64,000 nt of DNA from the human T2T-CHM13v2.0 reference genome, Homo sapiens, in the NCBI RefSeq assembly GCF_009914755.1, contig NC_060947.1. The stretch is one strand, 5' to 3'. The position numbers were made by a program, and so were the translations under genes. Positions 8,496 to 11,254 of this stretch are shown piece after piece. The notes under the pieces are model-generated. The model was not told the origin of the DNA. It did not search any database and worked only from the letters and a program-made list of their open reading frames with translations. Position 1 is the first letter of the stretch, and the number at the start of each line of letters is the position of its first letter.

Positions 8496-8629
8496 TGAAC
8501 CGGAGGCTCCTGTACCGGCTGCATCCGGAGCAGGGCATGCCGGCCGGCGTGTGCGTGGACGCTGCGGGGAAGCTCTGGGTGGCCTCTGCGTCGATAGAGG
8601 CAAGGTGATACGCCTGGACCCCGAGACAG
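8496..8629 (+). pseudogene. Regucalcin/SMP-30-like unprocessed pseudogene, third-from-last coding exon
   Basis: Acceptor CTCTCATTGCAG|8496 and donor 8629|GTGTGT. Translates [29 protein letters not shown][+2 nt][15 protein letters not shown], versus recalled RGN [44 protein letters not shown]. Length 134 bp = 132-bp RGN exon plus a 2-nt insertion. Confidence 0.92.
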
Positions 8630-8789
8630 GTGTGTGCCGGATGGCGGGGCCGTATGAGGCTTGGCCACATCGGGTGTCCACTGCGTCTGCAGCGTTCTGG
8701 CTTCAGAAGTCGGGGCCGGGCAGCAATCGCGAATTTGTAGAGACTAAGGGGCCTCCGTTTCCCGACGGCACGGACTCCCAGGTTCCCTC

Positions 8790-9490
8790 TGCAGGTGTGC
8801 TAGGTCCTGGGGCTGCCGCAACCAAGGACTGGCTGCCGAAAAAACAGGAAGTCACCTCCCCCAGTCCTGCAGAGCAGGAGTCTGAGACCGAGGAGTTTCA
8901 GGGCCGTACTCCCTCCAGGAGCTGTAGTGGAGGGTCCTTCCTGCCTCTCCCGGCTCCTGGGGGCTCCAGGCATCCCTGGGCTTGTGGCCGCATCACTCCA
9001 CTCTCTGCCTCCGTCTCCACGTGGCCTCCTCCTCTGTGTCTGTGTCTCCTCTTCTGTCTCTAGAAGGACACCTGTCATTGCATTTAGGATCCACCCTACT
9101 CCAGGATGATCTCATCTCAAGATCCTTCACTAACTAGATCTTGAAACACCCTATTTCTATACAAGGTCTCATTCCTAGGTTGTGGATATTAGGGTGTAGA
9201 CAGATCTTTTTGGGAACCACAGTTCAATCCACTTCAATTGTATTGAGACTCTAGGGGAGGGTCCTTCCTGCCTCTCCCAGCTCCTGGGGGCTCCAGGCAT
9301 CCCTGGGCTTGAGGCCACATCACTCCAGTCTCTGCCTCCGTCTCCACGTGGCCTCCTCCTCTGTGTCTGTGTCTGCTCTTCTGTCTCTTAGAAGGACACT
9401 GGTGATTGGATGTAGGGCCCACCCTAACCTGCTCTGACCTACTAATTACCTCTGCAAACACCCTATTTCCAAATAATTTCCCATTCTGAG
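8790..9490 (-). mobile_element. Two tandem MLT1(C)-derived MaLR LTR copies in the pseudogene intron
   Basis: Core GGAGGGTCCTTCCTGCCTCTCCCAGCTCCTGGGGGCTCCAGGCATCCCTGGGCTTGTGGCCGCATCACTCCAGTCTCTGCCTCCGTCTCCACGTGG at ~8930 and ~9256, followed by MLT1-like GGACAC..GTCATTG..ATTTAGG..CCCACCCTA. Confidence 0.75.
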
Positions 9491-9690
9491 ATCCTACTTG
9501 ACATGAATCTGGGGAGACTACAGAGCTCACTAGAGCAGGTGCGGCTGGGCCTGGCTAGGCAGGTGCCAATCTGGCAGCTCCAGGTGCCACAGAGACACCC
9601 ATGCTGCCCGGGGGTTGGGCCCAGGGTCAGGAGGAACGGCCAGGCAGGCGGCCTGGGGTGCTCAGGCTCAGCCCCCACGCTCGCTCACAG

Positions 9691-9844
9691 GGAAGGTGCT
9701 GTGCACGGTGGAGCTGCCTGTGTACAGGGTCACCTCTTGCTGCTTCGGGGACCCGGCTACGACAACCTCTACGTGACCTCCGCGGCGGACCGCCTGAGTC
9801 CGGAGCACTTGTTACGGGAGCCCCGGGCTGGACACATCTTCAAG
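9691..9844 (+). pseudogene. Regucalcin-like pseudogene, penultimate coding exon
   Basis: Acceptor GCTCACAG|9691 and donor 9844|GTTCCG. Translates (G)KVLCTVELPVYRVTSCCFG[-1 nt]GPGYDNLYVTSAADRLSPEHLLREPRAGHIFK, versus RGN [52 protein letters not shown]. Length 154 bp = 155 minus 1. Confidence 0.92.
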
Positions 9845-9996
9845 GTTCCGTAAGGGTTTTCTGCCGAGAGTCCCTCCTGGGGCCGCGGGCGAGAGCTCAT
9901 CTTTAACCTCGGTGGGAAGCTCGGGCAGGGTGGGCGATGTCTGCAGACAGACGGAGGTTATTGTTTCTGTTTCCTAGAAAACAAACGTTTCCAAAC

Positions 9997-10290
9997 TTTT
10001 TTTTTTTTGAGATGGAGTTTCGCTCCTGTTGCCTGGGCTGCAGTGCAGTGGCGTGATCTCGGCTCACTGCAACCTCCGCCTCCTGGGTTCAAGTGATTCT
10101 CTCACCTCAGCCGCCTGAGTAGCCGGGATTACAGGGAGGCACCACCACACCCGGCTAATTTTGTATTTTTAGTAGAGACGGGGTTTCACCATGTTGGTCA
10201 GGCTGGTCTTGAACTCCCGACCTCAGGTGATCCGCCGGCCTCGGCCTCCCAAAGTGCTGGGATGACAGGTGCGAGCCGCTGCGCCCGGCC
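9997..10290 (-). mobile_element. AluS
   Basis: Poly-T followed by the antisense Alu dimer. Confidence 0.9.
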
Positions 10291-10336
10291 AGTTTCAAAG
10301 GTTTTATGCCCCTGGGTGTTAGACAGAAATTGTGTT

Positions 10337-10636
10337 GGCCGGGCGCGGTGGCTCACGCCTGTAATCCCAGCACTTTGGGAGGCTGAGGCGGGCGGATCAC
10401 GAGGTCAGGAGATCGAGACCATCCCGGCTAAAACGGTGAAACCCCGTCTCTACTAAAAATACAAAAAAATTAGCCGGGCGTAGTGGCGGGCGCCTGTAGT
10501 CCCAGCTACTTGGGAGGCTGAGGCAGGAGAATGGCGTGAACCCGGGAGGCGGAGCTTGCAGTGAGCCGAGATCCCGCCACTGCACTCCAGCCTGGGCGAC
10601 AGAGCGAGACTCCGTCTCAAAAAAAAAAAAAAAAAA
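10337..10636 (+). mobile_element. AluYa5 (young, human-specific) with TSD AGAAATTGTGTT
   Basis: Ya5 diagnostics ACCATCCCGGCTAAAACGGTG, GGCGTAGTGGCGGG, CTACTTGGG and GAGATCCCGCCACT. CpGs intact. TSD at 10325-10336 and 10636-10647. Confidence 0.88.
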
Positions 10637-10651
10637 GAAATTGTGTTTTTA

Positions 10652-10960
10652 GGCCGGGCCCAGTGGCTCATGCCTGTCATCTCAGCACTTTGGGAGGCCG
10701 AGGCAGGAGGATCATGAGGTCAGGAGATCGAGACCATCCTGGCTAACCTGGTGAAACCCCGTCTCTACTAAAAAATACAAAAAAAAAATTATCTGGGCGT
10801 GGTGGCACCTGCCTGTAGTCCCAGCTACTCGGGAGTCTGAGGCAGGAGAATGGCATGAACCTGGGAGGCGGAGGTTGCAGTGAGCCGAGATCGTGCCACT
10901 GCACTCCAGCCTGGGCGACAGAGAGAGACTCCGTCTCAAAACAAACAAACAAACAAAAAT
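10652..10960 (+). mobile_element. Alu (Y/Sc-like) with TSD AAATTGTGTTTTTA
   Basis: Full Alu dimer with a (CAAA)n tail and a flanking duplication. Confidence 0.88.
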
Positions 10961-11077
10961 TGTGTTTTTAACGTGTGGGTTTTAAAGCCTCCAGCATTGT
11001 TCTGGCCTCACTCTGCCGGTAACACGGTGTTTCGGCCACAGCCTTGGAACTGACCGCAGCATCCCGGCTCCATCCAG

Positions 11078-11254
11078 GGGTCACGGGCTTTGGGGTGAGA
11101 GGAGGCCCCCCGTTTACCCCTTCACTGGCTGAGCCGAGAGCCGCTCCCAGGGCAGCTTCGTGCGTTGGCCTCCGTGCGGGGGTGCTGGGCCGGCGTCAGC
11201 GGCCCCCCGCACGCTCATTCCCGCAGCAGCGTCGGGTTCACAGCGGGCAATAAA
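11078..11254 (+). pseudogene. Regucalcin-like pseudogene, terminal exon with stop (TGA 11130-11132) and AATAAA (11249-11254)
   Basis: VTGFGVRGGPP[+2 nt]YPFTG* versus RGN C-terminus ITGLGVKGIAPYSYAG*. The nearest CCAG ends at 11077, 2 nt out of phase. The polyA signal lies ~120 nt after the stop. Confidence 0.75.

What the first reader, a model, noticed from the sequence alone, without database searches (positions are those of the whole stretch)
8496..11254. Dead second regucalcin/SMP-30 (gluconolactonase) gene at the tip of PAR1: three intron-separated exons with stop and polyA signal
Seen in the sequence: three GC-rich segments (8496-8629, 9691-9844, ~11080-11132). After correcting one small indel each (+2, -1, +2), they translate to the C-terminal ~110 aa of the SMP-30/regucalcin beta-propeller. 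AG/GT boundaries of the first two give 134 and 154 nt, against 132 and 155 nt for RGN exons as recalled, and AATAAA sits at 11249. Identity to recalled human RGN is only about 27/44 aa in the first exon, far below mammalian RGN orthologue conservation. Inference: this is neither a retrocopy nor a recent duplicate of Xp11 RGN. It looks like an ancient paralog that stayed functional until fairly recently, i.e. a unitary gene loss. I recall an unnamed two-exon unprocessed pseudogene annotated distal to PLCXD1, so the locus may be partly known. Its identity as a distinct regucalcin paralog and its terminal exon may not be.
Basis: partly seen in the sequence, partly recalled or inferred. Interest (0 to 1): 0.88.

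Follow-up and report, generated by a model that had tools for sequence, protein, structure and literature searches.

The report
Dead regucalcin-like gene in PAR1
The last three exons of a broken second regucalcin gene sit near the tip of the human X/Y pseudoautosomal region; they are the remains of a "regucalcin-like" gene that lemurs and many other mammals still have intact.

Summary
Window 8496-8629, 9691-9844 and 11078-11132 (+ strand) are three collinear exon remnants. They have AG/GT borders at the same positions as the last three coding exons of human RGN (132, 155 and 51 nt in RGN; 134, 154 and 55 nt here). They match regucalcin residues about 189-299, ending in TGA at the homologous codon, and AATAAA lies 117 nt downstream.

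The copy is dead. There are four frame-breaking lesions, not three, because the last exon needs two. The metal-ligand position 204 is Ala. No trace of the first ~187 codons exists anywhere between the telomere and the remnant; that space is largely minisatellites.

It is not a copy of Xp11 RGN. It is 59% identical to RGN but 62-74% identical to the 19 mammalian "regucalcin-like" proteins used in the tree. It carries the regucalcin-like residue at 10 of 12 diagnostic columns and the RGN residue at none. A sister relation to human RGN is rejected (AU p 0.0003).

The paralog itself is in print: gene R1 of PMC9233358, an amniote duplicate lost in most mammals. From recall, GENCODE annotates the first two exons as an unprocessed pseudogene. 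Not found in print: the assignment to R1, the third exon and the 5' truncation. Synteny and timing could not be tested. Modest interest.

The parts
8496..8629 (+). Remnant of coding exon 4 of 6 (regucalcin residues ~189-232). AG at 8494-8495, GT at 8630-8631. Two extra bases at about 8585-8586 break the frame after ...KLWVA. Ala stands at the position of metal ligand Asp204.
   Evidence: regucalcin 189-218, E 1e-6; 134 vs 132 nt, 84 of 132 identical to RGN; E 2e-11 and 0.0095.
8630..9690 (+). Intron (1061 nt) at the parental position. About 8839-9515 is a dispersed repeat that is common in PAR1.
9691..9844 (+). Remnant of coding exon 5 of 6 (regucalcin residues ~233-284). AG at 9689-9690, GT at 9845-9846. 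One base is missing at about 9750, after ...SCCFG.
   Evidence: regucalcin 254-284, E 3.5e-5; E 7e-11; 154 vs 155 nt, 87 of 154 identical; E 1.6e-7 and 4.7e-11.
9845..11077 (+). Intron (1233 nt) at the parental position, holding Alu-like repeats. Two are head to tail at 10337-10970; a third, in the opposite orientation, lies at about 9990-10290.
   Evidence: The Alu assignment is by eye and from the hub's repeat mask.
11078..11132 (+). Remnant of the last coding exon (residues ~285-299) with stop TGA at 11130-11132, the homologous codon. There are two frame breaks: 11078-11079 (two extra bases or a lost acceptor) and 11113-11114 (two extra bases).
   Evidence: E 1.5 alone; 33 of 49 identical to the RGN last exon; best hit of 3482 ORFs, E 0.007.
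11249..11254 (+). AATAAA, 117 nt after the stop. It is the only + strand copy in window 1-15912.
1..7867 (.). Minisatellite arrays (1-3029, 61-bp unit; 3288-5828, 26-bp unit; 6910-7867, 28/56-bp unit) occupy most of the DNA 5' of the remnant, where the missing exons would be expected.
   Evidence: Absence of exons 1-3.

Best explanation
This is a 5'-truncated, unprocessed pseudogene, and by the evidence a unitary one. It is the human remnant of the mammalian "regucalcin-like" gene (R1 of PMC9233358), an old paralog of RGN/SMP-30.

The ancestral gene encoded a 299-residue six-bladed beta-propeller lactonase with a divalent-metal site, built on the same six coding exons as RGN.

In the human lineage the gene died. 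Only the last three coding exons survive, about 70.5-73.3 kb from the Xp/Yp telomere and some 33 kb distal to PLCXD1. They carry four frame-breaking lesions and a substitution at a metal ligand. The exons for residues 1 to ~187 are gone, and the DNA upstream is now largely minisatellite arrays. It cannot make a propeller and does nothing as a protein.

Shown: homology, exon structure, lesions, truncation, closer kinship to regucalcin-like proteins than to RGN, and identity of the X and Y copies.

Inferred: orthology to the intact strepsirrhine genes, loss somewhere on the haplorhine lineage, and the enzyme activity of the ancestral protein.
For: Homology and collinearity with regucalcin.

Exon borders and lengths equal to those of RGN read from the same genome.

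Lesions.

Absence of the first three coding exons in chrX:1-74000 and in the whole window:
- tblastn with human RGN exon peptides gave no credible hit. The best outside the known pieces was E 0.052, a 21%-identical match to a repeat that appears twice.
- tblastn with 8 regucalcin-like proteins found nothing at E <= 1 apart from the known pieces and scattered hits at E 0.5-0.95 elsewhere.
- With the family profile, only profile positions 188-284 were hit.

Kinship:
- 65 of 110 identical to human RGN and 59 of 104 to echidna regucalcin.
- 81 of 110 to beaver, 77 of 105 to Lemur catta, 74 of 100 to Tupaia and 77 of 109 to armadillo regucalcin-like proteins.
- Of 12 columns that separate RGN from regucalcin-like proteins, the remnant has the regucalcin-like residue at 10, the RGN residue at 0 and neither at 2.
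- The tree split RGN | rest has support 100/99, and the branch joining the placental regucalcin-like proteins with the remnant has 92/85.
- A clade with human RGN is rejected (AU p 0.0003). A clade with the four strepsirrhine proteins is not rejected (p 0.365).

Constraint for most of its history: pN 0.271 against a saturated pS of 0.815, and no in-frame stop in the 110 read-through codons.

Decay since: terminal branch 0.28 against a median of 0.067. The remnant differs at 2 of 31 columns that are invariant in all 21 proteins; by my reading of the alignment, one of these is the Asp204 position.

Intact relatives keep E18, N103 and D204 in 13 of 13 rows. R101 and N154 are each kept in 12 of 13; the exceptions are Ser in armadillo and a gap in Otolemur. 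The lemur protein aligns 1-299 to mouse regucalcin 1-299 without a gap.

The paralog and its repeated loss in mammals are described in PMC9233358, section 5.

The Y copy is 4501 of 4501 identical.
Against: - Synteny was not tested. No vertebrate genome other than this one was available, so I cannot show that the intact regucalcin-like genes lie next to PLCXD1.
- The AU test does not reject a tree in which the remnant branches outside all 19 regucalcin-like proteins (log-likelihood 12.9 lower, p 0.22).
- Its place among the placental sequences is unresolved. The nearest row by path is beaver, not a primate. Only 111 columns are available.
- With two long outgroups included, the outgroup did not root cleanly.
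- The RGN side of the tree has only two sequences (human, echidna), and no sauropsid R1 or R2 sequences were available.
- The absence of haplorhine proteins among the 44 hits is weak evidence. That search reaches only proteins sharing exact words with the squirrel query, and it also missed almost all true RGNs.
- Pfam scores of the single pieces are below the curated cut-off.
- The third exon rests on a short match (E 0.007-0.026).
Confidence: 0.9

Rival explanations
1. A decayed duplicate of the Xp11.3 RGN gene that arose within primates or placentals and drifted fast in the recombination-hot, GC-rich PAR1.
For: PAR1 sequence is strongly GC-shifted (GC3 0.85 against 0.43 in RGN), which inflates divergence. 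The remnant has a long branch.
Against: - A clade with human RGN is rejected (AU p 0.0003, log-likelihood 50.5 lower).
- It has the RGN residue at 0 of 12 diagnostic columns and the regucalcin-like residue at 10.
- It is 62-74% identical to the 19 regucalcin-like proteins of the tree, against 59% to human RGN and 57% to echidna regucalcin.
- pN/pS of 0.33 with saturated pS does not fit neutral drift from a recent copy.
Confidence: 0.03
2. A relic of a third, separate regucalcin lineage that is neither RGN (R2) nor the mammalian regucalcin-like gene (R1).
For: The AU test does not reject placing it outside all 19 regucalcin-like proteins (p 0.22).
Against: - It shares 10 of 12 residues that set regucalcin-like proteins apart from RGN.
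- The free tree puts it inside the placental regucalcin-like group, which excludes platypus, with support 92/85.
- The long branch of a dead gene explains the weak AU result.
- PMC9233358 reports only two amniote copies.
Confidence: 0.04
3. The exons are still in use, for example as part of a transcribed non-coding RNA or a short protein read in the present frames.
For: Splice-site dinucleotides of the first two exons and an AATAAA are kept. From recall, GENCODE carries a transcript model here.
Against: No frame runs through more than one exon piece. The N-terminal 187 residues, and with them any recognisable start and promoter-proximal exon, are absent. A third of a six-bladed propeller cannot fold as one. 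No expression data were available here.
Confidence: 0.03

Closest known systems
Human RGN (regucalcin / SMP-30, gluconolactonase) at Xp11.3, G000:C23:46488180-46502700
   Same: Same fold family (SGL, PF08450). The same three exon borders and phases. Exon lengths 132/155/51 against 134/154/55 nt. The stop is at the homologous codon.
   Different: Only 65 of 110 residues and 204 of 335 aligned bases are identical. Synonymous sites are saturated. The remnant has none of the RGN-specific residues at the 12 diagnostic columns. RGN is intact with six coding exons.
Mammalian "regucalcin-like" proteins: gene R1 of PMC9233358; NCBI "regucalcin-like" of Lemur catta (P0032), Microcebus (P0033), Nycticebus (P0031), Otolemur (P0050), Tupaia, Castor, Dasypus, platypus and others
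   Same: 62-74% identity over the surviving 100-110 residues for the 19 proteins of the tree. Shared diagnostic residues at 10 of 12 columns. Same C-terminal length and stop position.
   Different: Those are open frames, many of exactly 299 residues, that keep the metal and substrate residues. The human copy has four frame breaks, Ala at position 204, and lacks residues 1 to ~187. Their chromosomal position relative to PLCXD1 is unknown to me.
GULOP, the human unitary pseudogene of L-gulonolactone oxidase
   Same: A dead human gene whose intact orthologue survives in strepsirrhines and most mammals. By the known role of RGN it belongs to the same pathway: regucalcin makes the lactone that GULO oxidises (PMC11169010, passages seen; PMC9233358, Background passages seen).
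   Different: An unrelated protein family and chromosome. No evidence here that the two losses are linked. By PMC9233358, the mouse has no regucalcin paralog, yet it makes vitamin C (that last point is from recall).
GENCODE unprocessed pseudogene ENSG00000228572 (clone-based name LL0YNC03-29C1.1); recalled, not seen in any call
   Same: As I recall it, a two-exon model spanning 1349 bp distal to PLCXD1. That equals the span 8496-9844 of the first two exon remnants.
   Different: As recalled, it has no third exon and no assignment to the regucalcin-like paralog. I could not check this. The RefSeq table supplied with the finding lists no gene here, and full-text searches for both names and the Ensembl id found no paper.

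Membership tests
SMP-30/gluconolactonase/LRE-like (Pfam PF08450, SGL) | Significant match to the family profile | tested here: met
   Pfam: 20.7 and 14.6 bits for two pieces, each below the 26.3-bit cut-off because the pieces are short. Family-specific profile: four collinear hits at E 2e-11, 0.0095, 1.6e-7 and 4.7e-11. Solved regucalcins: E 1e-6 and 3.5e-5.
SMP-30/gluconolactonase/LRE-like (Pfam PF08450, SGL) | A complete six-bladed propeller domain (about 246 profile positions, 299 residues in regucalcins) | tested here: not met
   Only profile positions 188-299 are present. No match to positions 1-187 in chrX:1-74000 or in the window.
SMP-30/gluconolactonase/LRE-like (Pfam PF08450, SGL) | Metal-binding residues (Glu18, Asn154, Asp204; residue roles recalled from the human SMP30 structure papers) | tested here: not met
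   Positions 18 and 154 lie in the missing part. Position 204 is Ala in the remnant and Asp in all 21 vertebrate proteins compared.
Mammalian regucalcin-like paralog (R1 of PMC9233358) | Closer to regucalcin-like proteins than to RGN in sequence and in diagnostic residues | tested here: met
   62-74% identity to the 19 regucalcin-like proteins of the tree, against 57-59% to the two RGNs. At 12 diagnostic columns: 10 regucalcin-like, 0 RGN, 2 neither.
Mammalian regucalcin-like paralog (R1 of PMC9233358) | Falls inside the regucalcin-like clade in a tree | tested here: inconclusive
   The free tree says yes (split 100/99; placental group 92/85), and a clade with human RGN is rejected (p 0.0003). 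A position just outside all 19 regucalcin-like proteins is not rejected (p 0.22). Only 111 columns, two RGN rows and no sauropsids.
Mammalian regucalcin-like paralog (R1 of PMC9233358) | Same chromosomal neighbourhood (next to PLCXD1) as the intact genes of other species | not testable with these tools
   No vertebrate genome other than the window's own was on hand. Two paper searches, for regucalcin-like with PLCXD1 and for regucalcin with PLCXD1, found none.
Unprocessed (not retrotransposed) pseudogene | Introns kept at the parental positions; open frame disabled | tested here: met
   Introns of 1061 and 1233 nt with AG/GT at the RGN exon borders. Four frame breaks.
Unitary pseudogene | No functional copy of the same gene in the genome, while orthologues are intact in other species | tested here: inconclusive
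   A genome-wide SGL search found RGN exons and no other regucalcin-type locus. The other three hits are weak: chr3 (E 0.07), chr12 (E 0.1) and chr20 (E 2.6). That search scores only the best candidates and did not list this remnant itself. The only other copy of the remnant is the identical Y PAR1 copy. Intact regucalcin-like proteins exist in many mammals. Orthology was not confirmed by synteny.

The most novel reading that the evidence does not exclude
The human relic marks a haplorhine-wide loss of a second gulonolactonase, and that loss followed from the death of GULO. The regucalcin-like enzyme would have been dedicated to vitamin C synthesis, so it became dispensable when the pathway's last step was lost. 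Strepsirrhines, which keep GULO, also keep an intact regucalcin-like gene.

If so, the PAR1-tip remnant would be a second fossil of the vitamin C pathway in our genome. The distribution of the regucalcin-like gene across mammals should then track GULO status, for example in guinea pig and bats.
Probability: 0.12. Interest if true: 0.55.

Novelty: new member of a known kind. Interest (0 to 1): 0.3.

Why it matters
It gives a name and an ancestry to the most distal gene-like sequence seen on the human X and Y short arms in this assembly. The sequence is the fossil of a known amniote regucalcin paralog, not a copy of RGN.

That adds one documented case to the list of human unitary gene losses. 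It also supplies physical evidence for one of the "independent losses" that PMC9233358 inferred only from absence. And it shows how a subtelomeric gene was eroded from its 5' end, where minisatellite arrays now lie.

The practical value is mainly for annotation: the parent assignment, the third exon and the truncation. It also gives a marker for dating the loss across primate telomere-to-telomere assemblies. It does not change what is known about regucalcin function.

Tried and rejected
- Word-indexed protein search with the two open pieces (lengths = longer) returned only the window's own ORFs (12 and 17 candidates). Searches failed on minimum length and were re-sent with longer references.
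- The exhaustive representative search with the 34-residue piece of exon 5 gave 8 hits. One of them, P0009, opened the way to the regucalcin-like family. P0005 (2788 aa, repetitive) and P0010 were not followed.
- Looking for the missing 5' exons with human RGN exon peptides, 8 regucalcin-like proteins and a family profile found nothing.
- A tree with two distant outgroups (a Chloroflexi SGL protein and an unnamed double-domain protein) rooted badly because of long branches. I rebuilt it without them.
- Rows left out of the trees: 25 of the 44 hits (partial, mis-spliced or near-duplicate squirrel and rodent models) and the unnamed fragments P0006-P0010. The Chloroflexi protein P0054 was used only.
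- Chance similarity was rejected on the E-values above.
- A processed pseudogene was rejected because the introns are retained.
- Paper searches that found nothing bearing on this locus: regucalcin + pseudoautosomal (2 papers listed, neither opened); ENSG00000228572 (0); LL0YNC03-29C1.1 (0); AL954722.1 (0); regucalcin-like + PLCXD1 (0); regucalcin + PLCXD1 (0); regucalcin + unitary pseudogene (1 paper, about GULOP only).
They hold the vertebrate tree (Fig. S11) and could show which mammals carry R1.
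Full report
**What is there.** The window is T2T-CHM13 chrX:62001-126000, so the finding lies about 70.5-73.3 kb from the Xp telomere. 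Reading 8300-11400 and listing all stop-to-stop frames shows three + strand segments with regucalcin-like translations:
- 8496-8629, with AG before and GT after;
- 9691-9844, with AG before and GT after;
- 11078-11132, with AG before, ending in TGA.

The own-genome search with Pfam SGL located the real RGN gene at G000:C23:46488180-46501907, exon by exon. From those loci I read its last three coding exons as 132, 155 and 51 nt. The three remnants are 134, 154 and 55 nt, with borders at the same codon positions.

**More than chance.**
- The open piece of the first remnant matches solved regucalcins at residues 189-218 (E 1e-6). The second piece of the second remnant matches residues 254-284 (E 3.5e-5).
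- Pfam SGL matches at 20.7 and 14.6 bits, below its 26.3-bit cut-off for such short pieces.
- A profile built from 13 full-length family members, run over 3382 six-frame ORFs of chrX:1-74000, gives four collinear hits: profile 188-218, 217-234, 231-254 and 251-284, at E 2e-11, 0.0095, 1.6e-7 and 4.7e-11. Nothing else scores better than E 25.
- The last exon alone is weak by tblastn (E 1.5). A 16-column profile of the family's C-terminus has its one good hit in the whole window exactly there: full-sequence E 0.007, domain E 0.026, next best 1.4, out of 3482 ORFs.
- AATAAA at 11249-11254 is the only + strand copy in the first 15.9 kb of the window.

**How it is broken.** By my reading there are four frame breaks:
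- two extra bases after ...KLWVA (about 8585-8586);
- one missing base after ...SCCFG (about 9750);
- two extra bases, or a lost acceptor, at 11078-11079;
- two extra bases at 11113-11114.

Apart from these there is no in-frame stop in the 110 read-through codons. The remnant differs from the family at 2 of 31 columns that are invariant in all 21 vertebrate proteins compared. By my reading of the alignment, one of these is Ala in place of Asp at position 204. That residue's role as a metal ligand is from recall. The numbering follows.

**The 5' half is gone.** Three searches found no trace of the three exons that encode residues 1 to ~187, either between the telomere and the remnant or anywhere in the window:
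- human RGN exon peptides;
- eight regucalcin-like proteins;
- the family profile.

Minisatellite arrays at 1-3029, 3288-5828 and 6910-7867 fill most of the 8.5 kb upstream. The Y-chromosome copy (G000:C24:75675-80175) is identical at 4501 of 4501 bases.

**Which gene it was.** Against human RGN the remnant is 65 of 110 residues and 204 of 335 bases identical. Synonymous sites are saturated (pS 0.815) and pN is 0.271. GC3 is 0.85 against 0.43 in RGN. That is old divergence, mostly under constraint.

The exhaustive search with the 34-residue open piece found eight proteins at E <= 0.001, four of them 73-76% identical over that piece. One of these, P0009, led to 44 relatives. These form a family that NCBI and UniProt call "regucalcin-like", annotated in:
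- Lemur catta, Microcebus, Nycticebus and Otolemur;
- Tupaia and Galeopterus;
- Castor, many ground squirrels and marmots, and cricetid rodents;
- Sorex, Galemys, Tenrec and Dasypus;
- platypus.

The list also includes echidna regucalcin and one bacterial protein.

The remnant is 62-74% identical to the 19 regucalcin-like proteins I used in the tree, and 57% identical to echidna regucalcin, which is itself 80% identical to human RGN. At 12 columns that separate the two groups it has the regucalcin-like residue 10 times and the RGN residue never.

In a tree of 22 rows and 111 columns:
- RGN (human, echidna) is split from all the rest at 100/99.
- The remnant sits with the placental regucalcin-like proteins (92/85), unresolved within them.
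- A clade with human RGN is rejected (AU p 0.0003).
- A clade with the four strepsirrhines is compatible (p 0.365).

Against my reading, a position just outside all the regucalcin-like proteins is not rejected (p 0.22). With two distant outgroups the rooting was poor.

**What the living gene looks like.** The lemur protein aligns 1-299 to mouse regucalcin 1-299 without gaps. In 13 full-length family members, E18, N103 and D204 are kept in all 13. R101 and N154 are each kept in 12; the exceptions are Ser in armadillo and a gap in Otolemur. RGN position 121 is A, P or G in 11 of the 12 regucalcin-like rows and Glu in Sorex and in the echidna RGN. An active lactonase is therefore a fair inference for the ancestral protein, but it has not been tested.

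**What is already known.** PMC9233358 (section 5 read; passages) reports regucalcin duplicates R1 and R2 in reptiles, birds and mammals. It infers a duplication in their common ancestor and says that only a small fraction of mammals still has R1. Its main text does not mention a pseudogene, synteny or PLCXD1.

From recall only, GENCODE annotates a two-exon unprocessed pseudogene here whose 1349-bp span equals 8496-9844. The RefSeq table supplied with the finding has no gene at this place. Eight full-text searches found no paper that ties regucalcin to this locus.

I add four things: the relic belongs to the already described regucalcin-like (R1) lineage, it has four frame breaks rather than three, it has lost a metal ligand, and it lacks its whole 5' half.

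"Functional until fairly recently" is not supported. The lesions and the long branch (0.28 against a median of 0.067) suggest an old death. The presence of four strepsirrhines and no haplorhine among the 44 relatives hints at a loss on the haplorhine lineage, but that search cannot prove absence. Synteny and dating need other vertebrate genomes.

It is a sound but modest finding.

Noticed in passing
window 1-3029, 3288-5828, 6910-7867: Three large minisatellite arrays: a 61-bp unit x ~50, a 26-bp unit x ~98, and a 28/56-bp unit. They fill most of the DNA between the window start and the pseudogene. From recall, this is the neighbourhood of the classic subtelomeric PAR1 VNTR locus DXYS14.
   Followed up: partly
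window ~8839-9515 (intron 1 of the remnant): A dispersed repeat with 93 scored matches (including the two full-length copies), 72-86% identical apart from one short 95% match. Nearly all lie in the X and Y PAR1, with one at chrX 3.25 Mb. It is internally duplicated, about 8917-9080 against 9255-9420, seen by eye. The repeat family was not identified.
   Followed up: no
G000:C24:75675-80175: The Y-chromosome PAR1 copy is identical to the X copy at 4501 of 4501 bases, although by recall the X and Y of this assembly come from different people.
   Followed up: yes
proteins P0009, P0012-P0022, P0024, P0026-P0027, P0042, P0044, P0046-P0047, P0049, P0051: Ground squirrels and marmots carry many distinct regucalcin-like proteins on different large contigs, which points to a lineage-specific expansion. 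Several models look broken or mis-spliced. P0046 (and the unnamed P0006) read the last exon in a shifted frame, which is the same as one of the shifted frames in the human remnant.
   Followed up: no
alignment of 13 full-length proteins: Eleven of the 12 regucalcin-like proteins have Ala, Pro or Gly where echidna RGN has Glu at position 121; Sorex also has Glu. The other five checked active-site positions are kept in almost all rows. This may mean a different substrate or metal preference.
   Followed up: no
G000:C3:32889282-32889803, C12:57158674-57158850, C20:25033766-25033930: Weak SGL-profile matches elsewhere in the genome, at E 0.07, 0.1 and 2.6. They were not examined and are probably other beta-propeller proteins.
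   Followed up: no
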